DNA from: a phage
DNA: 45,190 bases
Reading direction: 5' to 3' (one strand)
Sequence record: PZ050807.1
Positions 1,855-43,350 of the stretch are shown here, piece by piece (position 1 is the stretch's first letter; the number at the start of each line of letters is the position of its first letter). The notes under the pieces were generated by a model that was not told the origin of the DNA, made no database searches, and saw only the letters and a program-made list of their open reading frames with translations. The translations under genes and the position numbers were made by a program.

Positions 1855-2736
1855 ATGGTTACTAAAACAAACATCCCAGCGGATATTACGGCGCTGAAAA
1901 ATTCTACTTCATCATTGTCGTCTGACAAGATGGATAAGTCAGCCAATTTGTCGGACCTTGCAGACAAAACTGTGGCGCGAAGTAATCTTGGTTTAGGGTC
2001 AGCAGCCACGTTGGACGTAGGGGATAGCGGCGGAAACGCGATGAAGGTTGGTGATTTTGGATTGGGGCGACCTAACGGCGCTAAGGTTTTCTATACTACC
2101 TCGCAAGACACGCTACTTGCTGGACTGGACCAATACGGTTTATGTGTGTTCAGGAACGACCTGCAGATCGCTGCGCCGTGGGATATTTGGAACTATTCAT
2201 CAAACCTGTTCTTCCGCGCCGGAGATACTTACAGTATGCTAAGCATACCGTTTGAGGCGGCTGGTAAGGTGAAGGTTTTCGGCGGTGCCGCGGGTTACGG
2301 GTGGAAGACAGGGCGAACACTGCTCGATAACACAACGACGACTATTGACACTAACGGATTTGTCAAGCAAGCATCGCCGATTGTTAAAGTATTTGGTGAT
2401 GGTAAATTTGAGGTTAATGAAGAGTCGAAAGGGGCTAGTGTAGATCGCATATCCGTCGGCGTTTATCGTATCTCTGGTGTTCTCGGTCTTAACTCAGATG
2501 CGGCCTGGGGTGGCGTAGGCGGTGGCTTCGAGATTCCGGTAGACATCAACAAGCAGCCGCGGGTGTGGGTTGACTTCGAGGTTGAGCCTGAAGGGTCTAT
2601 CATTCTTAAAACGTACCACCGGACACACGACACGGCTCCGTCTTTTGCAAAAAACATAATTGACGGCGTTAATGACGGCGATCCGGTAGATATTCCATCA
2701 GACGCTTTTATCTCAGTTCGCGTTAACATGCCGTAA
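1855..2736 (+). CDS. Tail fibre protein (second fibre / receptor-binding candidate)
   Basis: N-terminal motif ANLSDLADKTVARSNLGLGSAATLDVG, characteristic of phage tail-fibre N-termini; Gly-rich beta-type C-terminus; RBS-like GAGGG upstream. Confidence 0.55.
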   Translation: MVTKTNIPADITALKNSTSSLSSDKMDKSANLSDLADKTVARSNLGLGSAATLDVGDSGGNAMKVGDFGLGRPNGAKVFYTTSQDTLLAGLDQYGLCVFRNDLQIAAPWDIWNYSSNLFFRAGDTYSMLSIPFEAAGKVKVFGGAAGYGWKTGRTLLDNTTTTIDTNGFVKQASPIVKVFGDGKFEVNEESKGASVDRISVGVYRISGVLGLNSDAAWGGVGGGFEIPVDINKQPRVWVDFEVEPEGSIILKTYHRTHDTAPSFAKNIIDGVNDGDPVDIPSDAFISVRVNMP

Positions 2737-19164: not shown

Positions 19165-19301
19165 GCGCAACCATCCGTGATATGCTTATGCACAACCGTT
19201 TTGAGATAGGCGGTCGGGTGTTTCGCAATTACTTCGTGGCGCGTGCCTGGGCGCGCCATATTGGCAAACCGGAGAGTGAAATTAAATGCTACACGATGTG
19301 A
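19161..19301 (+). CDS. Hypothetical small protein, 46 aa
   Basis: ATGA overlap with the upstream gene; weak. Confidence 0.3.
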   Translation: MSATIRDMLMHNRFEIGGRVFRNYFVARAWARHIGKPESEIKCYTM

Positions 19302-19573
19302 TGTTTTGGTTTGGTATATTCTGCGCAATCTTGCTGGTTGGCGCTGTCACCCTGGTTATTGCAGTCTGGTTTATATGGCCTGCCGTTGAGGCCGTGAGCA
19401 TTACCCGCATGACCTTCGCCTACTACAAGAAACACGGCATCACGCAACATTCCAGCAGGCTTAGGGTGTGGTGGCTGTGGTATCGCGATATGCTCGGAGG
19501 CAGGCGGTTCGAGGCCATCAGGTCACACGGTTGGGAATGGCAAGGCGTAGGACGCTGGTCAATTTCAGAATAA
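19286..19573 (+). CDS. Small membrane protein, 95 aa
   Basis: N-terminal transmembrane helix FWFGIFCAILLVGAVTLVIAVWFIW. Confidence 0.45.
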   Translation: MLHDVMFWFGIFCAILLVGAVTLVIAVWFIWPAVEAVSITRMTFAYYKKHGITQHSSRLRVWWLWYRDMLGGRRFEAIRSHGWEWQGVGRWSISE

Positions 19574-19593: not shown

Positions 19594-19627
19594 CCCCAGT
19601 GAGGTTTAATCTTACTGGGGCTTTTTT
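19594..19627 (+). terminator. Intrinsic terminator immediately upstream of the holin gene
   Basis: Hairpin CCCCAGTGAGG-TTTAAT-CTTACTGGGG followed by CTTTTTT. Confidence 0.6.
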
Positions 19628-19930
19628 ATGGAAGTTTTCCACAAATTAGATGAATGGGTAATTATCGCCGCTGCCGGGGTGGCGGGTGGCTTCGTAGGTG
19701 CGCGTATGCACCCGGAAGCTGCACAAGGACCGGTAAACTTTGTGCTGTTCGTCGTCGTTGGCTTCCTGTGTGCTGTATTTGGTGCACCAGCCATCGCCGA
19801 ACTGACCGGCTTGACCAGTCAGCGCATGATCGCAGGTCTTGGATTCGTAACGGCAATCTTCTGGATGCCGATTGCGGCACGGATCCGAGAGCTAATCGCT
19901 AATGCCCGCTTTCCGGGAGGTGCCAAATGA
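19628..19930 (+). CDS. Holin candidate
   Basis: 100 aa with two to three transmembrane segments, directly upstream of the endolysin. Confidence 0.55.
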   Translation: MEVFHKLDEWVIIAAAGVAGGFVGARMHPEAAQGPVNFVLFVVVGFLCAVFGAPAIAELTGLTSQRMIAGLGFVTAIFWMPIAARIRELIANARFPGGAK

Positions 19931-20193
19931 TTTTCGGCGTCGATGTTTGTGCGTGGTTTGGCGTTATGTTCTTCCTCATCGTCGGCGTGTCGTCGCTGTA
20001 CAACGTCTACGCCGCATCCGTGAATGACGGCCTTGTTGGTCGTGTGCTCTATCTCTTAACGGCAGTCTTCTGCGTGGTCGGCTTGATGCAAACCGGGCAT
20101 GTGGAGAACGCCACTATCAACGCCATTTGCTGGCTGTTTGCATTGCGCACCCTGCGCAATGCTGTTTTGAAAGGTGTAAAACATGCAATTTAG
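19927..20193 (+). CDS. Second small membrane protein (holin or antiholin-like)
   Basis: 88 aa, hydrophobic; ATGA overlap with the holin. Confidence 0.4.
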   Translation: MIFGVDVCAWFGVMFFLIVGVSSLYNVYAASVNDGLVGRVLYLLTAVFCVVGLMQTGHVENATINAICWLFALRTLRNAVLKGVKHAI

Positions 20194-20668
20194 TGAGAAT
20201 GGTTTGCGGTTTACTGCCGCATGGGAGACGTTTAGCCCGGTGCCCTACTTCGCCACGAAGAAAGAGCAGGAGCAAGGTCTTTATACCTGGGGCTTCGGTC
20301 ATACGGGCACTAACCCGCCGCGCAGCATTACCCGCACTGAGGCAATGGAACTACTGCGCAAGGATATTGCCATTGCTGAGAAGTTTGTTCAGCGCGCAAT
20401 GCCGATCGGGGCGTTCAACCAGGCCCAGTACGACGCGCTTGTGGATCTGGTCTTCAACGTAGGGCCGCGTGCCATCGGGGCTAATACCGGAACTGGTCGT
20501 GCAGTTCGTGCCGGTGATATTCAGACGATCCGTGCTAAACTGCCTCAATTCCGTATGCAAGCCGGGGTTGTTGTCAAGGGTCTGGTGCGTCGCGCTAACG
20601 GACGCCTGGCACTATTCGACGGTAAGCAGTGGGACGTTGCCGAGCGTATCGGTCGTAATTCAGTTTAA
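20183..20668 (+). CDS. Endolysin, GH24 (T4-type) lysozyme
   Basis: ENGLRF...GLYTWGFGHTG and FNQAQYDALVDLVFNVG match the T4-lysozyme family pattern. Confidence 0.8.
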   Translation: MQFSENGLRFTAAWETFSPVPYFATKKEQEQGLYTWGFGHTGTNPPRSITRTEAMELLRKDIAIAEKFVQRAMPIGAFNQAQYDALVDLVFNVGPRAIGANTGTGRAVRAGDIQTIRAKLPQFRMQAGVVVKGLVRRANGRLALFDGKQWDVAERIGRNSV

Positions 20669-20677
20669 GGGGGAGAT

Positions 20678-21085
20678 ATGTTAAAAAGTATTCTTGATCA
20701 TAATTCGGACGCGCTTGACGCGTTGGCTAAAACGGACGACGCTGGCGCGCGTCGCATCATTGCAGACACCATCAGCCATGCCGGGGTGTTTGGTGCAAGC
20801 CTTCCGGGACCGAAGCCTGATGTGAAGGTGACAAGCGCAACGGTATCGGTAGAGCCAGAGGCGGTTAAAATCGGCACCCAGTCTAAGGCTACGGTGGCGG
20901 TGCAACCGGCAGGGGCAACCGATAAATCCGGCGTGTGGATTAGTGGGTCGCCAACCATCGCCACCGTTGACGCTTCTGGTAATATCGACGGCAAAACTCC
21001 AGGTTCTGTCGATATTATTTGGGTGGCTAAGGATGGAAGCGGGGTGTCGGGCCGAAAAACGGTAACTGTGTCAAACTCCGAGTAA
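20678..21085 (+). CDS. Bacterial Ig-like (Big_2) domain protein
   Basis: Pattern ATVAVQPAGATDKSGVWISGSPTIATVDASGNIDGKTPGSVDIIWVAKDGSGVSGRKTVTV is typical of Big_2 domains. Confidence 0.5.
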   Translation: MLKSILDHNSDALDALAKTDDAGARRIIADTISHAGVFGASLPGPKPDVKVTSATVSVEPEAVKIGTQSKATVAVQPAGATDKSGVWISGSPTIATVDASGNIDGKTPGSVDIIWVAKDGSGVSGRKTVTVSNSE

Positions 21086-21091
21086 AGATCA

Positions 21092-21118
21092 AGCCCGCAA
21101 CTATGGCGGGCTTTTTAT
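21092..21118 (+). terminator. Intrinsic terminator
   Basis: AGCCCGC-AACTAT-GGCGGGCT followed by TTTTT. Confidence 0.65.
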
Positions 21119-21203
21119 TGCTTGACCTGCAACCAATTAATAGCTCATACTTCTGTCGCCGTGGTATATTGATCGCGGTCAAACTGAATCAGGAAAATAT
21201 ACG

Positions 21204-22614: not shown

Positions 22615-22683
22615 CGTGACAGGTGGTTGGGCCACCTCCTATGTTGCCGATGGTCGGCGCATATGCATAAAGGGGTTATTATC

Positions 22684-23235
22684 ATGGCAGAAATCAAGGT
22701 AAAAGGCCGTCGTGCGAAGTTAGACGGGCGAGTCGCAGTCACTCCACGCCGCAAACCGGGCGAGCAAACCGAACACACCAATCTCGGACCTGAAATCGAG
22801 TACGGCAAACGCCGGAAAGGGGGCAAGTGTGGCCGTCCTACTGATTATCGGTCTGTTTATTGTCGCCAGTTGCGAGATTATTTTGCTTCAGCCGACGCAT
22901 GGCAAGTCAACTACTCGGACAAGGGTGCGGCGCAAGTTATCCCACGTAACAAGATGCCAACACTTGGGCGCTTTGCGGCGGAAATCGGGGTAGGCGTAGC
23001 ATGTCTGTATCGCTGGGCGCGTAAGCACGAAGAATTTGCCGAGGCGATGGCGGACGCGATGGAACTGCAAAAGACCTTTCTCATGGAAGCGGGTGGCGTG
23101 ACTATTGCTGCGGGATTTGCTGCATTCCTGCTTAAAGCCAACCACGGCGTACGCGACGATGCACCGCTGGAAGATGACGACGATGATAACGGCGACGTCA
23201 CTGTGGAGCCAGCCGGTAAAGGGCAGGGCGAGTAA
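22684..23235 (+). CDS. Terminase small subunit
   Basis: Position upstream of TerL; HTH GRFAAEIGVGVACLYRWARKHEEF; acidic C-terminus; start at MAEIKVKG. Confidence 0.6.
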   Translation: MAEIKVKGRRAKLDGRVAVTPRRKPGEQTEHTNLGPEIEYGKRRKGGKCGRPTDYRSVYCRQLRDYFASADAWQVNYSDKGAAQVIPRNKMPTLGRFAAEIGVGVACLYRWARKHEEFAEAMADAMELQKTFLMEAGGVTIAAGFAAFLLKANHGVRDDAPLEDDDDDNGDVTVEPAGKGQGE

Positions 23236-24620
23236 TGCGTAACTACGCGGCAGAGCACCGCGCACTAGATCGCAAGCTGGCGAAACGCAACCGTCCGCCT
23301 AAACCTACCCGTGTAGCGCAAGCGGTCCGGCTATACCAGCCGGATTGCCTGCCGCACCAGGTAGAGCTACTCCGCGACACGAAGACCAAAATCCTCGGCC
23401 TGTGTTCCGGCTTCGGCGGTGGAAAGTCATGGTCGGCGGCCCGTAAAGTCGTCCAGCTTCTGTGCCTGAATCCTGGCTATGACGGCATTGTGACCGAGCC
23501 GACAATCCCGCTTCTGGTTAAAATCATGTACCCGGAGCTAGAGAAGTCTTTCGACGAGGCCGGTTTGCGCTGGAAGTTCAATAAACAGGATAAGATTTAT
23601 AACGTACTGGTGAAGGGTAAATGGACCCGCGTAATTTGCGAGTCAATGGAGAACTACACCCGCTTGATCGGTATTAACGCCGCGTGGATTGTTGCCGATG
23701 AGTTCGACACCACGAAGCAGGACGTCGCTATGGCGGCGTATCACAAGCTACTCGGTCGTTTGCGTGCCGGTAATGTGCGTCAGTTCGTCATCGTATCCAC
23801 GCCAGAAGGCTTCCGGGCGATGTATCAGATTTTCGAAGTGGAGAAGGATAGCCAGAAACGTCTGATCCGGGCGAAGACTACCGACAACTTCCACTTACCG
23901 CCAGACTTCATCGACACGCTGCGAAGCCAGTACCCGGCAAACCTGATTGACGCATACCTGGACGGTAAATTCGTCAACCTTACATCAGGTGCGGTGTACA
24001 AGATGTTCGACCGTGAGCAGAACGCCAGTACCGAGGAAGTGCAGCCAGAAGACACGCTAATCATTGGCATGGACTTTAACGTCACGAAGATGGCGGCTGT
24101 GGTGTACGTCAGACGGCAGCGAGTCACGGAGGCGAAGGAGTTCCGCGACGAAATCCACGCAGTCGATGAGTTTGTTGACTTGTTCGATACGCCTGCAATG
24201 ATTGACGAGATTGAGGCACGCTACCCCGATCATTGTGCTGCCGGTAAGGTGGTGATTTACCCGGATAGCAGTGGCAAGTCCCGTAAGACGGTCAACGCGT
24301 CCTCTTCGGATATTGCACAACTGGAAGACGCAGGCTTTGAGGTGGAATATGACAGCGTTAACCCGCCGGTAAAAGACCGCCTGATTGCCATGAATACGAT
24401 GATGTGTAACTCGAAGGGTGTGCGTCAGTATTTTGTGAATATGGCTAAATGCCCTACACTGGCAAAATGTTTAGAACAGCAGGTTTACGACCTGAAGAAA
24501 GGCGAGCCGGATAAAACGGCCGGTGTGGACCACATGAATGACGCCGCGGGCTATCCGATTGTGCACCTGTTCCCTGTGATTCGACCGATTGCCGTTGTTC
24601 CGACCGTCGATTTCTACTAA
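23235..24620 (+). CDS. Terminase large subunit
   Basis: ATPase Walker A LCSGFGGGKSW and Walker B WIVADEFD; 461 aa; followed by portal. Confidence 0.85.
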   Translation: MRNYAAEHRALDRKLAKRNRPPKPTRVAQAVRLYQPDCLPHQVELLRDTKTKILGLCSGFGGGKSWSAARKVVQLLCLNPGYDGIVTEPTIPLLVKIMYPELEKSFDEAGLRWKFNKQDKIYNVLVKGKWTRVICESMENYTRLIGINAAWIVADEFDTTKQDVAMAAYHKLLGRLRAGNVRQFVIVSTPEGFRAMYQIFEVEKDSQKRLIRAKTTDNFHLPPDFIDTLRSQYPANLIDAYLDGKFVNLTSGAVYKMFDREQNASTEEVQPEDTLIIGMDFNVTKMAAVVYVRRQRVTEAKEFRDEIHAVDEFVDLFDTPAMIDEIEARYPDHCAAGKVVIYPDSSGKSRKTVNASSSDIAQLEDAGFEVEYDSVNPPVKDRLIAMNTMMCNSKGVRQYFVNMAKCPTLAKCLEQQVYDLKKGEPDKTAGVDHMNDAAGYPIVHLFPVIRPIAVVPTVDFY

Positions 24621-24632
24621 GAGGATAATTTA

Positions 24633-26153
24633 ATGTCTGTAAACGTGGACAACCAACACCCACTCTACGCGCGCATTGCGCCTGAGTGGAAGATGATCCG
24701 TGACTGCGTTGCAGGTGAAAGGGCCGTTAAAGCGTGCGGCCCGCTTTACTTGCCGTTTCCGTCCAGTGGCGACAACACCGACCCAAAAGCGAAGGCCCGC
24801 TACAAGGCATACAAGCAACGTGCGGTCTTCCTGAACGCCACCGCTCGCACGCTTAACGCGTTGCTGGGTATCGCCTTTGCGAAGCCAGTCACCATGAAGC
24901 TGTCCGGTAAAATCGCCGAGCTTATCGACGACGTAGACGGCAGCGGAATGCCATTGCCGCAGTTACTGCGTGGAGCGATGTCGGAAGTGCTGCAATCCGG
25001 GCGAGCCGGTTTTATGGTGGACTATGACCGCCAGGCGCATTTTGACGAACTGGGTAACGTCGTGCCGCAAACCGCCGCAGAGATGGCGATGCACCGTCCG
25101 CTCATTAAGCTGTACACGGCAGAGCAGATCATCAACTGGCGACAGACCCACGGGCAGGACACCTTGATCGTGCTGAAAGAGTGCGACGAAATCAGCACCG
25201 AAGATACCGACGATTTCGCAAACCACGAAGTTACGATATGGACCGAGCTACGAATGGTCAACGGCAAAGCACACGCCCGCCGCTGGTTTTTCAACGCAGA
25301 CACGTCCGAAGTGCAGATGGATTTACCGCGTGGCTTTACCAAAACCGACCTGGTGCCGCTGGTAGATTCTGCCGGTCGCGCACTGGATAGCCTGCCGTTT
25401 TGCTGGTGTGGTGCAGTCGATAACAACGCCACCCCGGACGCCGCGCCGCTGGCTGATATTGCGTCCATCAACATTAAGCACTACAACGCCGAAGCGGACG
25501 TTGCTGAGATTGCGCACATCGTAGGCCAGCCGACGCTAATCACTACCGGTCTGACCCAATCATGGGCCGATAAAAACCTGAAGGGTGGTATCGCGCTCGG
25601 TGCGACGAAGGGTGTTATCTTGGGCCAGAACATGGACGCCAAACTGCTTCAGGCCGAAGAACGCAACCTGTCCGTGGCATTGTGTGAACGCCGTGAGAAA
25701 CAGATGGCTAAACTCGGTGCGGCGCTGGTGGAGAAGGGGAGCGCACCTAAAACGGCAACAGAAGCGGCCTACGACGCGCAGACTGATAACAGTATCTTGT
25801 CGCTGATTGCCGGTAACGTTGAGAAGGCATTCAACAAGGCGCTTCAGATCGTGCAGTTGTTCACTGGTGACACCGCCGAGCAGACTGTAACCCTGAACAA
25901 GTTCTACACCGAAATCACGGTGGATGCGCAGTTGATGACCGCAATGATGAGCGGTGTACAGACTGGGACGGTCCGTCTTTCTGATTTCATCAAATGGATG
26001 ATGGCACAGGGTGTAATCGACGATTCGCAGACTGTAGACCAGGTGGAAGACGACTTGCGGAATCAGAATCCGTTGCCGCAAATGTCACCGGATGCGGTAA
26101 ACTTGGACGATGACGAATCGGACAAGGTAGATGACGATGCCGAGGAAAATTAA
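24633..26153 (+). CDS. Portal protein
   Basis: 506 aa ORF directly after TerL with acidic C-terminus; synteny. Confidence 0.7.
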   Translation: MSVNVDNQHPLYARIAPEWKMIRDCVAGERAVKACGPLYLPFPSSGDNTDPKAKARYKAYKQRAVFLNATARTLNALLGIAFAKPVTMKLSGKIAELIDDVDGSGMPLPQLLRGAMSEVLQSGRAGFMVDYDRQAHFDELGNVVPQTAAEMAMHRPLIKLYTAEQIINWRQTHGQDTLIVLKECDEISTEDTDDFANHEVTIWTELRMVNGKAHARRWFFNADTSEVQMDLPRGFTKTDLVPLVDSAGRALDSLPFCWCGAVDNNATPDAAPLADIASINIKHYNAEADVAEIAHIVGQPTLITTGLTQSWADKNLKGGIALGATKGVILGQNMDAKLLQAEERNLSVALCERREKQMAKLGAALVEKGSAPKTATEAAYDAQTDNSILSLIAGNVEKAFNKALQIVQLFTGDTAEQTVTLNKFYTEITVDAQLMTAMMSGVQTGTVRLSDFIKWMMAQGVIDDSQTVDQVEDDLRNQNPLPQMSPDAVNLDDDESDKVDDDAEEN

Positions 26154-27240
26154 CCAACGACTGGCGGATCGCATGATTCGCCGTCACATCTTCACCCAGC
26201 GCCTGAGCAATGAGCAGGCGCGTAAAGTGCTGGCAATGTGGCAAAAATTCCGTCCTACGTTACTGGGTAAGCTGACCGAATTACTTGAGGGCAAGAAGTC
26301 AATGAGCAATAAGGCGCTTACCACTCTGCTAACCCAAATCGACAAAACGGTTAAGACCGAACTGCGCGACGAGTTTAAAGTGCTGGCTGAAGGTCTGGCG
26401 GAGTTTGCCGATACCGAGGCTGAATATCTGACCAACACATTAACGGCAGCACTGCAACCTGCGCTTTCAGTCCCTGCCGTTGAGGTGGTTGGTGTAGTGA
26501 CCGGTGCGCAGATTGCAGCGACGGCTATGAAAAATCCATTCCAGGGCAACACGCTTATGCAATGGCCTGATTCTCTGTCAGAATGGACCAGAACGCAGAT
26601 CAGCAATCAGGTGCGCGCCGGATTTATCCAGGGCAAACCTACTATGCAAATTATTGCGGACGTCAAGCGCGCGTTGGGCGGTCGTAGCGCGCAGGCCATT
26701 TCAAGCGTGGTCAAGTCCGCAGTCAACCACTATGCGGCGACCGCACGCGAATTAATGGTAAAAGCAAATGATGATATTCTCGACGGTCGCCAGTGGCTTT
26801 CTACACTGGATACTCACACCTCAACGCTCTGTCAGTTACGCGATCGCCTGTTTTATCCGGTTGATGTTACCCCCGAAACAAAAGGGAAACGGGACGGGAA
26901 AGTGGTGGCTGGATCACAGTATGGCGCTGGTCCGGGCAAGCTACATTATTGTTGCCGTTCTACCGAGACGTGGAAAGTCAAGGGTATGGAAGATTGGCCC
27001 AGTGGTAAGCGTCCGGCACTGAAGGCCGAAGCGGGTAAACTGCTAAGTGAGCAGGTCAGTGCTAAGACGGACTTCTTCTCCTGGGTACAGCGCCAGCCGC
27101 GGCATATCCTTGAGGAATTATACGGAGTGCAGCGCGCGGACCAGATCTTGCGGGGCGTGAAAGTTCCGACCATGTTTAACGACGCGGGCGAGCTTATGAC
27201 GATTCAACAACTGAAAAATAAGGGGTTATGGCGTGATTAA
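26131..27240 (+). CDS. Head morphogenesis (minor head) protein
   Basis: Synteny (portal-adjacent), 369 aa. Confidence 0.5.
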   Translation: MTMPRKINQRLADRMIRRHIFTQRLSNEQARKVLAMWQKFRPTLLGKLTELLEGKKSMSNKALTTLLTQIDKTVKTELRDEFKVLAEGLAEFADTEAEYLTNTLTAALQPALSVPAVEVVGVVTGAQIAATAMKNPFQGNTLMQWPDSLSEWTRTQISNQVRAGFIQGKPTMQIIADVKRALGGRSAQAISSVVKSAVNHYAATARELMVKANDDILDGRQWLSTLDTHTSTLCQLRDRLFYPVDVTPETKGKRDGKVVAGSQYGAGPGKLHYCCRSTETWKVKGMEDWPSGKRPALKAEAGKLLSEQVSAKTDFFSWVQRQPRHILEELYGVQRADQILRGVKVPTMFNDAGELMTIQQLKNKGLWRD

Positions 27241-27541
27241 ATACGCAGCAGTCGGATTGATTCTCGGCCTTGTAATTGGGTTCTGGCAAGGTGACAACTA
27301 TCGTGCTGGCGTGGTGGCGGAGGCGGCGCAGGAAGCGCAAGCCAAAGCCCAACGGCAGCAAACTAAGGTAATCCATGAGTCGGTACAGAAAGAGCAGGCC
27401 CGCGAAGTGGAGTTCCGCACAGTTGAGAAAGAGGTGATTAAATATGTCACGCGTCCTGATCGCGATAATTGTAAGTTTGATGCTGACCGCGTGCGGATCA
27501 AGCAACGTGCCGTTGATGCCGCTAACGGAATCAGCAATTAA
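27233..27541 (+). CDS. i-spanin (Rz-like)
   Basis: N-terminal transmembrane helix MIKYAAVGLILGLVIGFW followed by a charged coiled coil; contains the start of the overlapping o-spanin. Confidence 0.55.
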   Translation: MIKYAAVGLILGLVIGFWQGDNYRAGVVAEAAQEAQAKAQRQQTKVIHESVQKEQAREVEFRTVEKEVIKYVTRPDRDNCKFDADRVRIKQRAVDAANGISN

Positions 27542-27674
27542 GCCGCCGTGTAAGTTTGAGTCGCCATCGGAAGATCCGGACGAAGATTTAGCGATTGATG
27601 TGCGAAATATGAAATGCGGGGCGGAGTTAAGGGCACAAGTGCTGGATTTGCAGAAATTAATTAAGGGGCCGTAA
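27444..27674 (+). CDS. o-spanin (Rz1-like outer-membrane lipoprotein)
   Basis: Signal peptide with lipobox LTAC-G, Pro-rich; starts inside Rz in the +1 frame (overlapped architecture). Confidence 0.55.
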   Translation: MSRVLIAIIVSLMLTACGSSNVPLMPLTESAIKPPCKFESPSEDPDEDLAIDVRNMKCGAELRAQVLDLQKLIKGP

Positions 27675-28479: not shown

Positions 28480-28508
28480 AATATATTGCAACCAATTAGC
28501 CAATGCAA
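28480..28508 (-). promoter_or_regulatory. Early-type promoter (minus strand): -35 TTGCAT, 17 nt with ATTGGTTGCAA, -10 TATATT
   Basis: Minus strand: TTGCAT(28508..28503)-17 nt-TATATT(28485..28480). Confidence 0.5.
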
Positions 28509-28515
28509 GCAAATT

Positions 28516-28544
28516 TTGTGATTATTTTTATCACTGATAATATT
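28516..28544 (+). promoter_or_regulatory. Candidate promoter for the scaffold/capsid genes: TTGTGA-17 nt-TAATAT
   Basis: Hexamer match by eye. Confidence 0.4.
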
Positions 28545-28598
28545 AAGGGCGTGAAGTCGAGCGGGTGGCCCGCTCTGCCACAATCCCTGGGGGATGTT

Positions 28599-29303
28599 AT
28601 GAAACTGACTAAAGCAGAATATGACGCGTTGCCTGAAGGCATGAAAGCATTGTTTGTTGCCGATGGTGACGGGTACAAGGCGACGTTTATGACCGCCGAA
28701 GAAGTACAGGCCGAGATCAAAGGTCTGAAGGATAACAACGCGAAGCTGGTAGGCGAGAAAAAGGCAGAAGCCGAACGCCGTGCCGAAGCGGAGCGACTCG
28801 CTAAAGAGAAAGAGGAAGCCGCAGCGCGCAAGAACGGCGACCTTGAAGCGATCGATAAGTCCTGGCAGGACAAGTTTACTAAATACGATGCGGATACGAA
28901 GGGCAAAATCGAAGCCTACCGCAAACAGATTCACGATCTTACCATCGGCAGCACTGCCAAAGACCTGGCATCAAAGCTGTTCGGTAAGAACGCTGGCATT
29001 ATGCAACGCCACGTCATGGACCGCCTTGCGCTGGAAGAAGGCGAAGACGGCAGTCTGAAAGTGCGCGTATTGCAGGACGGCAAACCATCCGCACTGACTA
29101 TGGAAGAACTGGAGAAAGAGTTCCGTAGTAACGAAGATTTCGCGTCCGTCCTGGCGGGTACGCCTGCCGGTGGTGCGCCGAGCAAACCGACCCATGTAAT
29201 CGACGATCCGAAATCTAAGATTCAGATGGGTCATAGCTTCGGCATCACTGACTTGACCAAACAGGCCAGCGATATTATCGCCAAACTGGGCGACGACGAG
29301 TAA
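28599..29303 (+). CDS. Scaffolding protein candidate
   Basis: Charged coiled coil (AEAERRAEAERLAKEKEEAAARK), immediately upstream of the major capsid gene. Confidence 0.5.
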   Translation: MKLTKAEYDALPEGMKALFVADGDGYKATFMTAEEVQAEIKGLKDNNAKLVGEKKAEAERRAEAERLAKEKEEAAARKNGDLEAIDKSWQDKFTKYDADTKGKIEAYRKQIHDLTIGSTAKDLASKLFGKNAGIMQRHVMDRLALEEGEDGSLKVRVLQDGKPSALTMEELEKEFRSNEDFASVLAGTPAGGAPSKPTHVIDDPKSKIQMGHSFGITDLTKQASDIIAKLGDDE

Positions 29304-29400: not shown

Positions 29401-30522
29401 ATGTCTTTAACAGTGTTCCAGCGTAAACTCGTCACCGCGGTTACGCAAATGATCCCCGACAACTTGAACGTCTTCAACGCTGCCGCTAACGGCGCGGTCG
29501 TTCTCGGTACTGGCGAAGTGCTGAAAGATGTTGTCGAGAAGATGTCTGTAGGTCTGATCGCCAACCTGGTGTCTGACCGTAACGCATATGCCCCGGTTGG
29601 TACTCCTGCCGATGCGAAAGTGCTGGCGCGTATGCTGACCAACTCCGTTAACCTGTCCGCGAAAGTCGGTCCTGTTGCAATCACCAAAGCTATGATGGCT
29701 AAAATCGAAACCAACGTTAACAGCGTTGCGGCTGAGATTGCGGCACAGGCTACTCAAGCTATCTTGCTGCACTACCTGAAAGCGGGTATCGGCGCTGGTA
29801 AAGCTGCGATCGACACTAACGCTGCGGCGAAATATACCCAACCGGCGCGCGTTGACGGTGTAGGCGGTCGTACCTTCCCGACCCTGGCAGACTTCCCGCT
29901 GGCGGCGGCTAAGTTCGGCGATCAGGCATCTCTGATTAAGTCCTGGTTTATGGACGGTGTGACCTGGGCTAACTTCATTGCATATCAGGCGCTGCCTTCT
30001 GCTGAGCAGGTGTTCGCGATCGGCGACCTTCAGGTAATGGGTGATGGCTTAGGCCGCCGCTTTATTATCTCCGATGCCGCTGCCGATGCAATGGGCGCTG
30101 GCAAAATGCTGGGTCTTGTTCCGGGCGCGGTAGCAGTTACTACCAACGGTCTGGATATGCTGGCGCAGGAGCGTGGTGGTAACGAGAACATCGAGCGCTG
30201 GTGGCAGGGTGAGTTTGACTTTAACGTCGCTGTTAAAGGCTATCGCATGACCGCGGCAGCACGCGCAGGCGTTGAAGGCGTCCGTTCCTTCAAACTGGCT
30301 GATATTACCAATACCAGTAACTGGGAACTGGATCAGGGCCAGGTCGATAACGCGCCGTACACTACCTACGACGTTGGCGGCACGGATACTGAAGAGGGAT
30401 CTACCACTTCACTGAAAGAGAAAGGTCGTCGTCGTAAGCAGGACGCGCAGGCCGTACCGACCCGCCACATCAAGGAAACTGCCGGTGTGTTGGTAACTCT
30501 GACGGCAACCACCGCATCTTAA
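29401..30522 (+). CDS. Major capsid protein
   Basis: 373 aa ORF after the scaffold, strong RBS context, flanked by terminators; synteny. Confidence 0.65.
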   Translation: MSLTVFQRKLVTAVTQMIPDNLNVFNAAANGAVVLGTGEVLKDVVEKMSVGLIANLVSDRNAYAPVGTPADAKVLARMLTNSVNLSAKVGPVAITKAMMAKIETNVNSVAAEIAAQATQAILLHYLKAGIGAGKAAIDTNAAAKYTQPARVDGVGGRTFPTLADFPLAAAKFGDQASLIKSWFMDGVTWANFIAYQALPSAEQVFAIGDLQVMGDGLGRRFIISDAAADAMGAGKMLGLVPGAVAVTTNGLDMLAQERGGNENIERWWQGEFDFNVAVKGYRMTAAARAGVEGVRSFKLADITNTSNWELDQGQVDNAPYTTYDVGGTDTEEGSTTSLKEKGRRRKQDAQAVPTRHIKETAGVLVTLTATTAS

Positions 30523-32619: not shown

Positions 32620-33345
32620 ATGGGTTATCAACTTCCTAACGGGTCCAGCGTCCAAATCGGGTCCGTACAGGGTGCAGGCATCGCAGTTACGGCAGCGTCG
32701 AACGCGGCGGCATCTATCAGCGACCTGACTCAAGGTTGCGTAATCACCTGCGCCGCTTCACATGGTCTGGCGGTTGGCGACGTGGTTATGTTCACGAAAT
32801 CCCCGTGGGTCCGTGCGCTTAACCAGGCTTTCATCGTGGGTAAAGTAGACACCAACGACGTGACGCTGGCGCGCTTCGACACGTCTGATACGACTAAGTA
32901 TCCGAACGGTGCGTTCCAGGCAGGCACACCGGGTGAGGTCGTGAAGATTTCGAGCTTTATCGACTTCCCGTTTATCACCAACGTTGCCGTGTCCGGTGGC
33001 GACCAGCAGACGACGACCTTCCAGCCGTTGCAGGTGAATACCGCGATCAGTCTGAACACCACGAAAAACCCGTTGGTACAGACCTATACCTTCACCCACG
33101 ACGAAGAAGACCCGATCCGTCCGATTCTGGAAGACCTGGACGACACGCAGAAGACAACGGTAATTAAGTTCACTAACCCGGCAGCGTCCAGCGGTAAAGG
33201 TGAAATCCGTATCTATGCGGCTAAGGTGTCCTTCCAGAAGATTCCGTCTGCGGAAGTAAACAACGTCGAAACGGTACAATCCACTCTGACCATGCAGTCG
33301 GAAATGATGATTTACCGCAAAGACCTTGTTGAAGCCTTATCCTGA
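32620..33345 (+). CDS. Major tail protein
   Basis: 241 aa ORF before the chaperone/tape-measure genes; terminator downstream. Confidence 0.6.
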   Translation: MGYQLPNGSSVQIGSVQGAGIAVTAASNAAASISDLTQGCVITCAASHGLAVGDVVMFTKSPWVRALNQAFIVGKVDTNDVTLARFDTSDTTKYPNGAFQAGTPGEVVKISSFIDFPFITNVAVSGGDQQTTTFQPLQVNTAISLNTTKNPLVQTYTFTHDEEDPIRPILEDLDDTQKTTVIKFTNPAASSGKGEIRIYAAKVSFQKIPSAEVNNVETVQSTLTMQSEMMIYRKDLVEALS

Positions 33346-39299: not shown

Positions 39300-39907
39300 C
39301 CACGTTTAAATTATACGGCGTCTTAGGACGCCGTTTTGGTAAAGAGCATAAGCTGGACTGTTTCACACCAGGCGAGGGAATTACCGGTCTGTGTGTGAAA
39401 TTACCCGGCTTACAGGAATATTTAATGTCTGCGCACCTGGACAATATGATGTTCAAAGTGCGTAAAGGCGACCACACAATGGGAAGCACCGATGAACTGG
39501 GCGAATCCCACGGCAACCGCGTCATTACCATCGCGCCAGTTATGACGGGTGCAAAAAGCGGCTTAGGCCAATTGCTGGCTGGCGTGGCTATCGTAGTAGC
39601 CTCGTTCTATACGGGTGGTCTTGCAACTGCCGCTTTCGGAGCTTCCGCCGCCACCGCTGCCGCGATCGGGACCGCCACATTCTCATTCGGTATGTCAATG
39701 GCGCTGGGTGGTGTTATGCAGCTACTATCACCGCAACCGAAAGGATTGCAGACACGCCAGGATGTTGATAACAAAGCATCGTACGCGTTCGGCGGGCCAG
39801 TAAACACGACTGCGCAAGGGACCGCACTTGGTGTATTATGGGGCGAGCGTGAGATCGGCGGCGCTATTATTTCAGCCGGTATCGTAACTGAGGATTTACA
39901 CGAATGA
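39290..39907 (+). CDS. Tail assembly protein I-like
   Basis: Synteny; Gly/Ala-rich hydrophobic C-terminal half; start at MAMTTFKLYGV. Confidence 0.55.
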   Translation: MAMTTFKLYGVLGRRFGKEHKLDCFTPGEGITGLCVKLPGLQEYLMSAHLDNMMFKVRKGDHTMGSTDELGESHGNRVITIAPVMTGAKSGLGQLLAGVAIVVASFYTGGLATAAFGASAATAAAIGTATFSFGMSMALGGVMQLLSPQPKGLQTRQDVDNKASYAFGGPVNTTAQGTALGVLWGEREIGGAIISAGIVTEDLHE

Positions 39908-42900
39908 CTATCGTCTATTCCGTAACGGGCCATAAGGGCGGTGGCGGGAAACAGCATACCCCGCAAGAAACACCCGACAGCCTGCACTCGCTGGCTAAAA
40001 TCCGCATTCTGCTCGCATTGGGTGAGGGGGAATTTGAAGGCATCCCGTCGGCAGCAGAGCTACGCAAGCGCGTCTATCTGGACGGCACGCCGATCATGAA
40101 CGAGGATAACTCGGAAAACTTCCCTGGCGCGCGCGTTGAGTTCCGCCCAGGCACACAGCACCAGGACGTGATTCACGGATTTTCAGCCGTGGAAAGCGAG
40201 TCGTCGGTAAACGTCAAGCTGGAGCAGGGCTCACCGTGGGTACGTCAAATCACCGACACCAGTCTGGACGCGGTGCGCATTCGTATTGGCATTCCTGCGT
40301 TGTACACCAACGAAGATAACGGCGACCTGGTTGGTGGGCGTATCGACTATAAGATCGTGGTGTACACCGACAACGCCGATCCGCGTGAGTTTGCATTCGC
40401 TGCCGTTGGTAAAACAATGTCGCTGTATGAGCGCGACCACCGCATCGAATTACCGTCGAACGTTAACACCGGCTGGCGCGTCGAAGTGCACCGCATCACC
40501 GCAGACTCCACCTCGGCGAAAGTGGTAAACGATATTCGCGTACAATCTATCACCGAGATAATCGACGCCCGTTTGCGCTACCCGCTAACCGCGTTGCTGT
40601 TCGTTGAGTTTGATGCGAAGGCTTTCCAGGATATCCCGCGCGTGTCTATCAAGTGCAAAGGCCGCAAAGTGCTGATCCCGACCAACTACGACCCGATCGC
40701 ACATACCTATAGCGGCGACTGGGACGGCACTTTCAAGCGTGCATGGACGGATAACCCTGCGTGGCACTGGTACGATATTTGTATTACGGAACGCTTCGGC
40801 CTCGGTCGTCGCATCAAGCCGCAGATGCTAAACCGCTATGCGCTTTACCAGATTGCACAACGCTGCGATCAGATGGTTAGTGACGGCAACGGCGGACAAG
40901 AAATACGGTTTAAGAATGATATGTACATACAGTCGCAGACCGACGCATGGACCGTTCTGAAGGACTTAGCCGCCATCTTCGCCGGAATGACCTGGTGGGG
41001 CAATCAGATGCTGAATATTGTCAGTGACCAACCAGTCGCTGCGGTTTCGCACACCATTACGAATGCCTCCGTTATTGATGGGCGATTCGATTATGCGTCT
41101 GGCAGCCAGAAGACTCGCTATTCAACATTCGCGGTGGCATACGGCAATCCGGCTAACCACTACGATGACGCAATCGCAACGGGCCAGCGCGTGGAACTGG
41201 TGCGCCGCCACAAGATTAACCGCCTTGATATTACGGCGATCGGCTGTACGCGTGAATCTGAAGCGCAACGCCGCGGTCACTGGGCGCTTATTTCAAACCA
41301 GCTTGACCAGCAGGTGAGCTTTAAAGTAGGTATGGAAGGTCTGTTCTTCATTCCGGGGAGCGTGGTCGCTATCGCCGACACCAACATTTCCGGCGGTTTC
41401 GAGATTCGCGGCGGTCGCTTACTGGAAGACCCAGGCACGCGCACGGTGCTTAACACAGACGAAGAAATCACATTCCGCCCAGGTGATAAATTCCTGGTGC
41501 GCACTGCGAACGGTAGTGTCGAGACTCGCGCAATATCAAGCGTCAACGGCAACAAGGTTACGTTATCCAGTGCCCTGGATGCCGACCCGATCCCGTTCCA
41601 GCCGTTTTGCGTCGACGGTGATGATATTCAGGTGCAGAAGTTCCGCATCACCGATCTGGAGTATGACGACGCAACCAGCACTTTCTCGGTGCGCGGGATT
41701 GAGTACAACGACAGCAAATATGATGCCGTTGATAATGGCGCTCGTCTTGATCCTGGCATCTTTACGCAAATGCCGGACGGTGTGCTGAAGGGGCCGGAAT
41801 CCGTAACCATTACCCCGTCGCAGATTTCAAGCCAGGGTCAGTTAATCACCAACGTGGATATTGTCTTTCCACCGGTGAAAAATGCCGTTGTATATGAAAT
41901 CCAGTGGCGAAGGACCAGCCTTCAGAATATGGCGTTGCAGTGGGGTAACGACTGGGTAAACTTGCCTCGTACGCCGTCGAACGGTGCACACATCCCCAAC
42001 GTGTTCTCCGGTAACTACCAGGCGCGCGTCCGCGCAATCGGTATGGGTGAAATCTCATCCCCGTGGGTAGAGTCTGCCATCACGCCGATCGAGGGTCGTT
42101 TAGGTGGGCTGAATGCGCCAATCATTACGGCGGCAGTTTCCGGTTTGCATCAGATCTTGTGGAAGTGGAATCACAACAACGCTGCGACCGATATTTCATA
42201 CACAGAGCTTGAAGTGCGCAAGCCAGGGACTGAAGAGTGGCACTTCCTCACTAACGTGCCGTACCCAGGCGCGGAGTACGCGCAGACTTCGCTTGAGTTC
42301 GGGATTTACCAGCAGTTGCGAGCACGCGTAGCAGATAAAATCGGCAACCTGTCCGATTGGTCCGCACCGTTTGAAGGCCAGGTGAGCGATAAAGTTGACG
42401 ACTACATGAAGGGACTCGACGATGAGTTTCTTACTTCTGAAGACGGCAAGCACTTCCAGGAACAGATCGACACGTTCCCGCAAGGCATTTACGAGTCAAT
42501 GCTTACGGACGCGCAGCAGTTGCTTAACGCACGTGCCGAGTATCAAGGTATTTACGCCGAGATCAAAGTGGCCTATACCGTTGCTGCCGATGCGCACCAG
42601 GCGGTCGCTGAACTGGAAACGCTGATCGGCACGCGCCTTGATGATGCGGAAGCCGCAATCCATACGCTACAGACTGCGCAGAGCACACACGAACAGGCGT
42701 TCGCTCAGTACCAGCAAACGGTGTCAGCTAAGTTTGGCGATCAGGAAGCCGCAATCCAGTCAGTGCAAACGGCAACGAGTGATGTAGCCAGCGCTCTGGC
42801 GACCTACAAAACACAGGTAGCCGCGCAGTTCGGGCAACAGTCCGCCGCGATCGAGCAGAAAATGACGTCTACGTTTAACCACTCTGGTGGTAACGCAACC

Positions 42901-43350
42901 TACAGCCTGAAAGCTGGAGTGACGTACAACGGGACGTATTATGATGCCGGTATGCAGCTTTCGGTAGTTGCCGAAGGGAACTCGGTTAAATCGTGCATCG
43001 CGTTCAAGGCGGACCAGTTCTACATCATGCACCCGTCGAACGGTACGCTATCCTCCGCGTTCATCGTTGACGGCGGGCAGGTGTACATCGACACGGCCCG
43101 AATCAAGAACGCGTCCATTAACTTTGCGCAGATCACGGACACGCTGCAATCCAACAACTGGCAGCCTGGCAGCCAGGGGTGGCGAATCGCGAAGGATGGC
43201 GGCGCGGAGTTTAACAACGTGACAATCCGCGGCAACGTGTATGCGCAGACTGGTAACTTCGGTTTTTCAAGTGGGTCGGTACAAATCGACTGGTCGGGGG
43301 TAAACGTGCCGTTGCCTGGCGGAGGGCGGGTTAAAGTGGGGGTGTGGTAA
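39904..43350 (+). CDS. Central tail fibre / host-specificity protein J-like
   Basis: 1148 aa; N-terminus GHKGGGGKQHTPQETPDSLHSLAKIRIL is J-like; synteny. Confidence 0.8.
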   Translation: MTIVYSVTGHKGGGGKQHTPQETPDSLHSLAKIRILLALGEGEFEGIPSAAELRKRVYLDGTPIMNEDNSENFPGARVEFRPGTQHQDVIHGFSAVESESSVNVKLEQGSPWVRQITDTSLDAVRIRIGIPALYTNEDNGDLVGGRIDYKIVVYTDNADPREFAFAAVGKTMSLYERDHRIELPSNVNTGWRVEVHRITADSTSAKVVNDIRVQSITEIIDARLRYPLTALLFVEFDAKAFQDIPRVSIKCKGRKVLIPTNYDPIAHTYSGDWDGTFKRAWTDNPAWHWYDICITERFGLGRRIKPQMLNRYALYQIAQRCDQMVSDGNGGQEIRFKNDMYIQSQTDAWTVLKDLAAIFAGMTWWGNQMLNIVSDQPVAAVSHTITNASVIDGRFDYASGSQKTRYSTFAVAYGNPANHYDDAIATGQRVELVRRHKINRLDITAIGCTRESEAQRRGHWALISNQLDQQVSFKVGMEGLFFIPGSVVAIADTNISGGFEIRGGRLLEDPGTRTVLNTDEEITFRPGDKFLVRTANGSVETRAISSVNGNKVTLSSALDADPIPFQPFCVDGDDIQVQKFRITDLEYDDATSTFSVRGIEYNDSKYDAVDNGARLDPGIFTQMPDGVLKGPESVTITPSQISSQGQLITNVDIVFPPVKNAVVYEIQWRRTSLQNMALQWGNDWVNLPRTPSNGAHIPNVFSGNYQARVRAIGMGEISSPWVESAITPIEGRLGGLNAPIITAAVSGLHQILWKWNHNNAATDISYTELEVRKPGTEEWHFLTNVPYPGAEYAQTSLEFGIYQQLRARVADKIGNLSDWSAPFEGQVSDKVDDYMKGLDDEFLTSEDGKHFQEQIDTFPQGIYESMLTDAQQLLNARAEYQGIYAEIKVAYTVAADAHQAVAELETLIGTRLDDAEAAIHTLQTAQSTHEQAFAQYQQTVSAKFGDQEAAIQSVQTATSDVASALATYKTQVAAQFGQQSAAIEQKMTSTFNHSGGNATYSLKAGVTYNGTYYDAGMQLSVVAEGNSVKSCIAFKADQFYIMHPSNGTLSSAFIVDGGQVYIDTARIKNASINFAQITDTLQSNNWQPGSQGWRIAKDGGAEFNNVTIRGNVYAQTGNFGFSSGSVQIDWSGVNVPLPGGGRVKVGVW

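What the first reader, a model, noticed from the sequence alone, without database searches (positions are those of the whole stretch)
20678..21085. Ig-like (Big_2) domain protein directly after the endolysin
A 135-aa protein with a clear Big_2-type Ig-like repeat sits in the slot where spanins are usually found, followed by a terminator. It could be a capsid or tail decoration protein encoded away from the structural operon, or a lysis or adhesion accessory.
Basis: partly seen in the sequence, partly recalled or inferred. Interest (0 to 1): 0.4.

Follow-up and report, generated by a model that had tools for sequence, protein, structure and literature searches.

The report
Ig-tipped capsid decoration protein, Dhillonvirus
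The small gene after the endolysin encodes a head (capsid) decoration protein of a Dhillonvirus coliphage: a short anchor seen in a solved capsid structure, carrying an optional Ig-like domain. It is an ordinary kind of phage protein in an unusual genomic place.

Summary
ORF 20678..21085 (+, 135 aa) is real, with a strong RBS and an intrinsic terminator. Its Big_2 match (residues 51-122) is well above threshold: E=2.8e-12, 46.8 bits against a cutoff of 22.8.

The window is a Dhillonvirus genome, 98-99% identical to LM40P1 and Ioannina over the 1.8-kb lysis region compared.

The key result is that residues 1-49 match PDB 9zys chain H, "Decoration protein gp64" (55 aa, E=4.4e-18). That chain was modelled with seven chains of a major capsid protein that matches this window's MCP over its full length (E=1e-210).

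So the protein has three parts:
- a roughly 38-aa helical capsid anchor
- a Pro-rich linker
- a surface-displayed Ig-like domain (AF2 pLDDT above 90; Foldseek hits to T5 pb6, lambda gpV and intimin Ig domains)

Most Dhillonviruses carry only the 53-55-aa anchor form. About 40 of 147 phage records carry an Ig-bearing form. Both modules are under purifying selection.

It is not a spanin. It has no TMD or lipobox, and the real i-/o-spanin pair lies at 27233..27674 in the head module.

The likely role is capsid decoration, with the Ig domain acting as a weak glycan/surface adhesin (inferred). This is a new member of a known kind, of modest interest.

The parts
20670..20676 (+). Ribosome-binding site GGGGGAG, 1 nt upstream of the ATG
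   Evidence: Read directly from the sequence.
20678..21085 (+). CDS of the 135-aa capsid decoration protein, long Ig-bearing form (13.5 kDa, pI 5.6, no TMD)
   Evidence: It is 93-96% identical to 135-aa proteins of LM40P1/Ioannina-type phages. Ioannina annotates its copy as 'Ig-like domain protein'.
20678..20791 (+). Capsid-anchor module, residues 1-38, predicted as two helices (2-18 and 22-34)
   Evidence: PDB 9zys_H 'Decoration protein gp64' matches residues 1-49 at E=4.4e-18. PHROG 11068 matches residues 1-49 at E=1.7e-25. The module is nearly invariant across homologues. AF2 predicts the helices at pLDDT 57-71. dN/dS is 0.02-0.2 in all but one low-divergence pair.
20792..20827 (+). Flexible Pro-rich linker, residues 39-50 (GASLPGPKPDVK)
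   Evidence: AF2 pLDDT is below 50-65 here. This is where the long and short forms diverge in the DNA alignment.
20828..21073 (+). Big_2 Ig-like beta-sandwich domain, residues 51-132, proposed to be displayed on the capsid surface
   Evidence: Pfam PF02368 E=2.8e-12. AF2 pLDDT 86-94 with eight strands. Foldseek matches T5 pb6 (E=2.8e-8, rmsd 1.4), the lambda gpV C-terminal domain, Big_2-CBM56, intimin and the phi29 MCP Big2 domain. PHROG 215 'structural protein with Ig domain', head and packaging, E=3e-19.
21091..21120 (+). Intrinsic terminator (AAGCCCGC-loop-GCGGGCTT plus T-run) that closes the holin-holin-endolysin-decoration unit
   Evidence: The same terminator directly follows both the short and the long forms in other Dhillonviruses.
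29401..30522 (+). Major capsid protein (373 aa), the inferred binding partner of the anchor
   Evidence: PDB 9zys_A 'Major capsid protein gp09' matches over the full length at E=1.1e-210; I count roughly 90% identity in the printed alignment. phrog_247 major head protein.
19628..20668 (+). Upstream genes of the same cassette: holin (19628..19930), holin (19927..20193) and endolysin (20183..20668)
   Evidence: phrog_2359, phrog_2508 and phrog_7, plus Pfam Phage_lysozyme.

Best explanation
The ORF encodes the Ig-bearing ('long') form of the Dhillonvirus head decoration protein. Residues 1-38 form a small helical hairpin that docks onto the outside of the assembled HK97-fold capsid lattice, as the 55-aa homologue gp64 does in the solved capsid 9zys. 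A Pro-rich linker (residues 39-50) then projects a single Big_2 Ig-like domain (residues 51-132) away from the shell. The gene is the last one in the late holin-holin-endolysin unit, so the protein is made in the cytoplasm late in infection, when capsids mature. It needs no export signal. The Ig domain is an optional cassette: most Dhillonviruses carry the anchor alone. By analogy with T4 Hoc and other capsid-displayed Ig domains, it most likely gives weak, multivalent binding to glycans on mucus, epithelia or bacterial surfaces, rather than being needed for assembly or lysis. What is shown: the ORF, the domain architecture, homology of the anchor to a structurally assigned decoration protein, homology of the cognate MCP, the Ig fold prediction, the presence/absence polymorphism and purifying selection. 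What is inferred: physical presence on this phage's capsid, copy number, outward orientation of the Ig domain and its ligand.
For: Anchor and capsid:
- Residues 1-49 match 9zys_H 'Decoration protein gp64' at E=4.4e-18, with 37 of 49 residues identical.
- In that entry two gp64 chains accompany seven MCP chains.
- The window's MCP aligns end to end with 9zys_A at E=1.1e-210.
- PHROG 11068, whose profile is 55 aa long, covers residues 1-49 at E=1.7e-25.

Ig domain:
- Big_2 scores E=2.8e-12.
- AF2 gives two N-terminal helices, a disordered linker and a beta-sandwich with pLDDT above 90.
- Foldseek matches phage Ig domains and small viral Big2 proteins, including annotated decoration proteins of phages Presley and KP8.

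Conservation and modularity:
- The gene sits after the endolysin and before the same terminator in every Dhillonvirus examined.
- Short forms of 53-55 aa and long forms of 133-137 aa differ by one clean indel of roughly 250 bp after the linker.
- 147 phage records carry the anchor and 40 of them carry an Ig-bearing form.
- dN/dS is below 0.3 for both modules in most pairs.
- An exhaustive HMMER search with the anchor finds only Dhillonvirus-type proteins, either anchor-only or anchor plus Big_2.

Support from other systems:
- A solved decoration protein with the same logic, a Pro-rich linker followed by a Big2 domain, is 9kmh gp29, matching at E=7e-6.
- Capsid-displayed Ig domains promote mucus and epithelial adherence in T4 Hoc and in engineered K1F (PMC13370021).
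Against: - There are no virion proteomics or cryo-EM data for this phage or for any long-form phage.
- I could not read the 9zys coordinates or find its paper, so the binding site and the direction in which gp64's C-terminus points are unknown.
- The anchor is only moderately confident in AF2 (pLDDT 57-71). This is expected for a segment that folds on binding, but it is not proof.
- The window's linker differs from that of gp64, and its MCP differs from 9zys_A mainly in residues 280-345, which could affect binding.
- SECphi18 carries a nonsense codon inside the Ig domain. The Ig domain is therefore dispensable in the laboratory, and its function is untested.
Confidence: 0.85

Rival explanations
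1. It is a lysis accessory occupying the spanin slot, for example a spanin substitute, a disruptin-like factor or a regulator of the endolysin.
For: Its position is right: immediately after holin-holin-endolysin and inside the same terminator-bounded unit.
Against: - It has no TMD (maximum 19-residue hydropathy 0.86), no signal peptide and no lipobox. It is acidic (pI 5.6), not cationic or amphipathic.
- A canonical overlapped pair exists elsewhere: an i-spanin (27233..27541, N-terminal TMD, phrog_2536 E=1e-30) and an o-spanin lipoprotein (27444..27674, lipobox LTAC, phrog_5672 E=2e-22).
- The N-terminal module is modelled on a capsid in 9zys.
Confidence: 0.03
2. It is a tail protein, as many GenBank records annotate it ('major tail protein'), or a decoration of the tail tube.
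For: The Ig domain resembles the C-terminal Ig domains of the tail tube proteins T5 pb6 and lambda gpV. Several Dhillonvirus records label the gene 'major tail protein'.
Against: - The similarity is confined to the mobile Big_2 domain.
- The phage's real tail tube protein is 32620..33345 (phrog_584, E=1.7e-74), and it shows no similarity to this ORF (BLASTP E=0.56).
- The anchor-only homologue is deposited as a capsid decoration protein together with MCP chains.
- 53-55-aa short forms are also labelled 'major tail protein', which shows the label was propagated by annotation transfer.
Confidence: 0.04
3. It is a non-structural cytoplasmic protein, for example an assembly chaperone or a host-interaction factor, that only shares an ancestral peptide with gp64. 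In this lineage the long form no longer binds capsids.
For: There is no direct virion evidence for any long form. Twelve of the first 49 residues differ from 9zys_H, mostly in residues 39-49.
Against: Residues 1-38 are nearly invariant between the long and short forms and show low dN/dS. This argues for the same constrained interaction. The MCP partner is also conserved.
Confidence: 0.06
4. It is a C-terminal extension of the endolysin made by stop-codon readthrough, giving the enzyme an Ig-like cell-wall-binding domain.
For: The ORF is in the same frame as the endolysin and separated from it by only TAA plus 9 nt.
Against: - The stop is TAA, and the ORF has its own strong RBS and ATG.
- In the other Dhillonviruses examined the gap is 16 nt and the frames differ: the endolysin starts at locus position 993 and the ORF at 1501, a distance of 508 nt, which is not a multiple of 3.
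- The N-terminus MLKSILDHN is residue 1 of the deposited gp64 chain.
Confidence: 0.01

Closest known systems
Dhillonvirus 'Decoration protein gp64' (PDB 9zys chain H; PHROG 11068)
   Same: The N-terminal 49 residues are homologous (E=4.4e-18, 37 of 49 identical, starting at residue 1). The partner MCP matches over its full length. Among sequenced Dhillonviruses the gene position is the same, after the endolysin and before a conserved terminator.
   Different: gp64 is 55 aa: the anchor plus a PSPPPP/acidic tail. The window protein replaces that tail with a linker and an 82-aa Big_2 domain, making it 2.5 times larger.
T5 pb10 and T4 Hoc (capsid decoration proteins with a capsid-binding module plus Ig-like domain(s); architecture recalled from my own knowledge of the literature)
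   Same: The logic is the same: a small capsid-binding module, a flexible linker and externally displayed Ig-like domain(s). These proteins are non-essential, and Hoc is implicated in mucus adherence (PMC13370021).
   Different: No sequence homology was detected. Neither pb10 nor T4 Hoc appears among the PDB sequence hits at E<=1, and the only Hoc-like hit (7x30_P) scores E=0.91. Hoc's capsid-binding module is C-terminal and it carries several Ig domains; here the anchor is N-terminal, about 38 aa long, with a single Ig domain.
PDB 9kmh/9kzj 'Decoration protein gp29 / BIG2 domain-containing protein' (255 aa)
   Same: It is a solved capsid decoration protein with a poly-Pro linker followed by a C-terminal Big_2 domain. 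That domain aligns to residues 42-124 at E=7e-6.
   Different: Its N-terminal capsid-binding part (about 150 aa) is unrelated to the 38-aa anchor here. Only the Ig domain is shared.
Warwickvirus (Drexlerviridae) vB_EcoS-95 gp68 and PHROG 215 'structural protein with Ig domain'
   Same: This is the closest Ig domain outside Dhillonvirus, 44% identical over residues 46-135. It is encoded in the head module next to the MCP gene. PHROG 215 matches at E=3e-19.
   Different: It is a 337-aa protein with a different N-terminal part, and it lies inside the structural operon rather than in the lysis cassette.

Membership tests
Dhillonvirus gp64-type capsid decoration protein (9zys_H / PHROG 11068) | Sequence homology across the whole capsid-bound peptide, starting at residue 1 | tested here: met
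   phmmer E=4.4e-18 over residues 1-49 against chain residues 1-49. PHROG 11068 E=1.7e-25 over profile positions 1-49 of 55.
Dhillonvirus gp64-type capsid decoration protein (9zys_H / PHROG 11068) | Cognate major capsid protein of the same type as in the solved capsid | tested here: met
   Window MCP 29401..30522 against 9zys_A: E=1.1e-210, full length.
Dhillonvirus gp64-type capsid decoration protein (9zys_H / PHROG 11068) | Conserved gene position: last gene of the holin-holin-endolysin unit, followed by the conserved terminator | tested here: met
   The same arrangement is seen in Ioannina, Bas84, ZCEC10, PTXU06, GeorgBuechner, SSL-2009a, SECphi18, JLBYU60, SO-1 and the IMG/VR loci.
Dhillonvirus gp64-type capsid decoration protein (9zys_H / PHROG 11068) | Physical presence on the mature capsid | not testable with these tools
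   This needs virion mass spectrometry or cryo-EM of this phage. No publication or coordinates for 9zys were accessible.
Big_2 bacterial Ig-like domain (Pfam PF02368) | HMM score above the gathering threshold | tested here: met
   46.8 bits against a cutoff of 22.8, E=2.8e-12, profile positions 2-73 of 79.
Big_2 bacterial Ig-like domain (Pfam PF02368) | Ig-like beta-sandwich fold | tested here: met
   AF2 pLDDT 86-94 for residues 51-132, with eight strands. Foldseek probability 1.00 to T5 pb6, lambda gpV C-terminal domain, Big_2-CBM56 and intimin.
Hoc / pb10-type Ig-bearing decoration proteins | Sequence homology of the capsid-binding module to Hoc or pb10 | tested here: not met
   Neither pb10 nor T4 Hoc appears among the PDB sequence hits at E<=1. 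The only Hoc-like hit (7x30_P) scores E=0.91 and lies in the Ig region. The protein works like these but is not a member.
Spanins (i-/o-spanin or u-spanin) | N-terminal TMD (i-spanin), or lipoprotein signal with lipobox Cys (o-/u-spanin) | tested here: not met
   Maximum 19-residue Kyte-Doolittle hydropathy is 0.86, and the protein contains no Cys at all. Genuine spanins were found at 27233..27674.
Siphovirus major tail (tube) protein | Tail-tube fold or family match in the N-terminal body of the protein | tested here: not met
   PHROG 'major tail protein' hits cover only residues 46-134, aligned to the C-terminal Ig part of those profiles. There is no similarity to the phage's own tube protein.

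The most novel reading that the evidence does not exclude
The ~38-aa gp64 anchor may be a natural minimal capsid-display platform. Dhillonviruses would then repeatedly gain, swap or lose a ~250-bp Ig cassette on it. At least three Ig lineages are seen, 40-56% identical to one another, alongside anchor-only forms and a nonsense-truncated form. On this reading the Ig+/Ig- polymorphism tunes where the virion sticks (gut mucus or epithelium, or bacterial surface glycans) without touching the tail receptor-binding proteins. It would be a siphovirus counterpart of Hoc-mediated adherence, in a genetically simple system.
Probability: 0.35. Interest if true: 0.45.

Novelty: new member of a known kind. 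Interest (0 to 1): 0.3.

Why it matters
- It corrects a widespread mis-annotation. The gene is labelled 'major tail protein', 'putative lysozyme' or 'hypothetical protein' across Dhillonvirus records, and in Bas84 the true ORF is not called at all.
- It explains why the 'spanin slot' holds a non-membrane protein.
- A 38-aa anchor that tolerates an 82-aa C-terminal passenger in nature suggests a ready-made display site on a well-behaved coliphage genus that is used in defence-system studies and phage-therapy collections.
- The natural Ig+/Ig- variants offer a clean comparison for testing whether capsid-borne Ig domains affect adherence or persistence.
- None of this is conceptually new. Ig-bearing decoration proteins are well known.

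Tried and rejected
Searches that were limited or failed:
- The word-indexed protein search with the 50-aa anchor returned only 2 hits because of an index limitation. The exhaustive HMMER search later showed that the family really is narrow. It contains five Dhillonvirus-type clusters, and the other two hits are repetitive proteins of over 1,100 aa matched over short stretches, probably spurious.
It was repeated with alignment A1 and gave 12 loci.
- I could not find a paper for PDB 9zys or identify the phage. The searches on 'Dhillonvirus' + 'decoration protein', on gp64/gp09, on HK578 and on '9ZYS' gave nothing relevant.
- NCBIfam has no model for this protein.

Leads that turned out to be something else:
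- The 'gp64' of Shigella phage Sf11 is an unrelated 52-kDa protein.
- The phage whose anchor is identical to 9zys_H over 49 aa in my loci is Sodalis phage SO-1 (L018). Neighbouring records number that region's genes gp53-gp58, so the gene there is probably not gp64, and the source phage of 9zys stays unidentified.
- The 'small Ig-like protein' of Dhillonvirus JLBYU60 discussed in PMC12309495 is a different gene, downstream of the tail spike.

Hypotheses rejected:
- The Ig domain is not a copy of the phage's own tail-tube Ig domain. BLASTP gives E=0.56, and this phage's tube protein has no Big_2 match.
- The spanin and lysis-accessory reading was rejected.
- Endolysin readthrough was rejected, because the shared frame is not conserved in the other genomes examined.

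Full report
**The observation**

The ORF at 20678..21085 (+) exists and encodes 135 aa. Its ATG is the first possible start after the endolysin's TAA, and a GGGGGAG Shine-Dalgarno sequence lies at 20670-20676. Six nucleotides after the stop there is a GC-rich hairpin (21091-21113) followed by a T-run.

Pfam Big_2 matches residues 51-122 at E=2.8e-12, 46.8 bits against a gathering score of 22.8. The three upstream genes are two holins and a Phage_lysozyme endolysin.

**Where the window comes from**

Megablast of 19500-21300 gives 99.1% identity to Dhillonvirus LM40P1 and 98.2% to Escherichia phage Ioannina. In Ioannina the gene is annotated 'Ig-like domain protein'.

Family and PDB matches place these genes in the window:
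- small terminase: 22627..23235
- portal: 24633..26153
- head morphogenesis: 26131..27240
- scaffold: 28503..29303
- major capsid protein: 29401..30522
- tail tube protein: 32620..33345

ORF 23235..24620, next to the small terminase, is probably the large terminase by position; I did not search it.

**The decisive result**

The protein has two modules. PHROG 11068, an 'unknown function' family whose profile is only 55 positions long, matches residues 1-49 at E=1.7e-25.

A sequence search of the PDB then found 9zys chain H, 'Decoration protein gp64', 55 aa. It aligns from residue 1 to residue 49 at E=4.4e-18, with 37 of 49 residues identical.

The same entry holds seven chains of 'Major capsid protein gp09'. 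That protein aligns end to end with the window's MCP at E=1.1e-210. I count roughly 90% identity in the printed alignment, with the differences concentrated in residues 280-345.

The N-terminal module of the ORF is therefore homologous to a peptide that experimentalists modelled on the capsid of a closely related phage.

**Structure**

AlphaFold2 was run on a 16-sequence alignment and gave a mean pLDDT of 81.6. The model has three parts:
- two helices (residues 2-18 and 22-34) at pLDDT 57-71
- an unstructured Pro-rich segment (residues 35-50)
- an eight-stranded beta-sandwich (residues 51-132) at pLDDT 86-94

Foldseek against the PDB returns the Ig domains of T5 pb6 (E=2.8e-8, rmsd 1.4 Å) and lambda gpV, followed by Big_2-CBM56, LigA, intimin and the Big2 insertion of the phi29 capsid protein.

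Foldseek against BFVD returns many small phage Big2 proteins. Two of them are annotated as capsid decoration proteins, from Acinetobacter phage Presley and Klebsiella phage KP8.

**Comparative anatomy**

tblastn with the anchor finds it in 147 phage records, essentially the genus Dhillonvirus plus Sodalis phage SO-1. tblastn with the full protein finds only 40 records that cover at least 80% of it.

Reading the loci directly gives the following forms:
- **Short forms, 53-55 aa** (Bas84, JLBYU60, SO-1 and eight IMG/VR contigs). These consist of the anchor, then LPSPPPP, then a short acidic tail.
- **Long forms, 133-137 aa**, in three Ig lineages. The window/Ioannina/ZCEC10 type is one. The PTXU06/GeorgBuechner type is 54-56% identical to the window protein. 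The SSL-2009a type is about 40% identical and its anchor is also divergent.
- **A truncated form.** SECphi18 has a nonsense codon (TAG at a position where the close relative PTXU06 has Trp) inside the Ig domain, which leaves an 86-aa product.

A DNA alignment shows that the long and short forms are collinear through the anchor and linker. They then differ by one block of about 250 bp and rejoin at the same terminator and the same downstream promoter-like TTGAC(T/C) box.

An exhaustive HMMER search of 1.84 billion representative proteins with the anchor found five Dhillonvirus-type clusters. They are either anchor-only or anchor plus Big_2, including frameshifted derivatives. No other passenger domain appears.

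Nei-Gojobori estimates among six window-type genes give dN/dS of 0.02-0.2 for the anchor at appreciable divergence and 0.13-0.3 for the linker plus Ig region. Ratios are higher (up to 0.59) only in the least diverged pairs, which have few substitutions. Both parts are therefore maintained by selection.

**Why it is not a lysis protein**

The protein has no hydrophobic segment: the maximum 19-residue hydropathy is 0.86. It has no cysteine, so no lipobox is possible, and it is mildly acidic.

A scan for lipoprotein signals found a textbook overlapped spanin pair elsewhere:
- an i-spanin at 27233..27541, with an N-terminal TMD (phrog_2536, E=1e-30)
- an o-spanin at 27444..27674, with lipobox LTAC (phrog_5672, E=1.9e-22)

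The pair sits between the head-morphogenesis gene and the scaffold gene. In this genus the arrangement is thus reversed: the spanins lie in the head module and a head decoration gene lies in the lysis cassette.

**Why it is not a tail protein**

The many GenBank 'major tail protein' labels come from the Big_2 domain's resemblance to the C-terminal Ig domains of pb6 and gpV. Even 53-aa short forms that lack any Ig domain carry that label.

The phage's real tube protein (phrog_584, E=1.7e-74) shows no similarity to this ORF.

**Mechanism**

- **Shown:** the domain architecture, homology of the anchor to a structurally assigned capsid decoration peptide, conservation of the partner MCP, the Ig fold, the optional nature of the Ig cassette and purifying selection.
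- **Inferred:** the protein is made late from the lysis unit. Its helical hairpin binds the expanded capsid. The deposited model has two gp64 chains per seven MCP chains, which would mean about 120 copies per T=7 shell if that model is one asymmetric unit. The linker then holds the Ig domain off the surface.
- **Inferred by analogy:** the Ig domain gives weak multivalent adhesion to glycans. T4 Hoc and engineered capsid-displayed Ig domains increase mucus and epithelial adherence (PMC13370021).
- **Closest Ig relatives:** they are head-associated. PHROG 215, 'structural protein with Ig domain', belongs to the head and packaging category. A 337-aa protein is encoded beside the MCP gene of Warwickvirus vB_EcoS-95. 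The solved 'Decoration protein gp29' (9kmh) has a poly-Pro linker followed by a Big2 domain.

**Comparison with known systems and novelty**

The protein belongs to the gp64/PHROG 11068 decoration family, and every testable criterion for that family is met. It works like T5 pb10 or T4 Hoc but is not homologous to their capsid-binding modules.

The Ig-bearing form does not seem to have been described functionally. I found no paper on it, and public annotations are inconsistent. Even so, it is a predictable variant of a well-known class. I rate it a new member of a known kind, with modest interest (0.3).

The most novel reading still open is that the anchor is a natural display platform with a swappable Ig cassette that tunes environmental adherence.

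**Limits**

I could not access the 9zys coordinates or its publication. No virion proteomics exist for a long-form phage. The 40-of-147 census rests on tblastn coverage, not on inspection of every genome.

Noticed in passing
window 27233..27541 (+) and 27444..27674 (+): An overlapped i-spanin (N-terminal TMD, phrog_2536 E=1e-30) and o-spanin lipoprotein (lipobox LTAC, phrog_5672 E=1.9e-22) lie in the head module, between the head-morphogenesis and scaffold genes and about 7 kb from the holin/endolysin cassette. The head decoration gene sits in the lysis cassette, so the two have effectively swapped places.
   Followed up: partly
window 44346..44570 (-): A 74-aa lipoprotein (MKTLLSILVVAMLSGC..., lipobox LSGC, with an RBS; phrog_4281 'unknown function', E=5e-29) is encoded on the opposite strand just past the large 1148-aa ORF (39904..43350), which I did not annotate. 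It may be a Cor/Llp-like superinfection-exclusion lipoprotein; that is inference only.
   Followed up: no
L002 (Escherichia phage JohannBuxtorf_Bas84) 2501..2668 versus annotated CDS 2526..2708: In Bas84 the annotated 60-aa 'hypothetical protein' Bas84_0065 is an overlapping ORF in another frame. The true 55-aa decoration ORF (MLKSILDHN...) is not annotated. Elsewhere the gene is variously labelled 'major tail protein', 'putative lysozyme' or 'putative lysozyme downstream ORF'.
   Followed up: partly
L007 (Escherichia phage SECphi18) 1501..1914: The long-form gene carries an in-frame TAG where the close relative PTXU06 has a Trp codon (KAGK*VSS versus KAGKWVSS) and is annotated as two 'major tail protein' CDSs. 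This natural or laboratory truncation keeps the anchor and loses most of the Ig domain. The metagenomic proteins P0001, P0027 and P0028 look like similar frameshift or deletion derivatives.
   Followed up: partly
window 20183..20668 and 20678..21085: The decoration ORF is in the same reading frame as the endolysin, separated only by TAA plus 9 nt. In the other Dhillonviruses examined the gap is 16 nt and the frames differ, so this is probably coincidence and not readthrough.
   Followed up: yes
window 21122..21151 (+): A promoter-like TTGACC-18-CATACT lies immediately after the terminator. The TTGAC(T/C) box is conserved at this position in most, though not all, of the Dhillonvirus loci aligned. 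It probably drives the exonuclease/terminase/head operon.
   Followed up: no
window 29401..30522 (MCP), residues ~280-345: Nearly all differences from the solved MCP (9zys_A), including a 7-residue indel, cluster in this one segment. The rest of the protein is almost identical. This may be a surface-exposed variable loop, and I do not know whether it contacts the decoration protein.
   Followed up: no
window 19286..19573 (+): A 95-aa predicted membrane protein (phrog_2531, unknown function, E=1.4e-33) lies just upstream of the holins and is separated from them by a terminator-like hairpin (19594-19620). It is conserved at this position in other Dhillonviruses, one of which annotates it as 'putative membrane protein'.
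   Followed up: no
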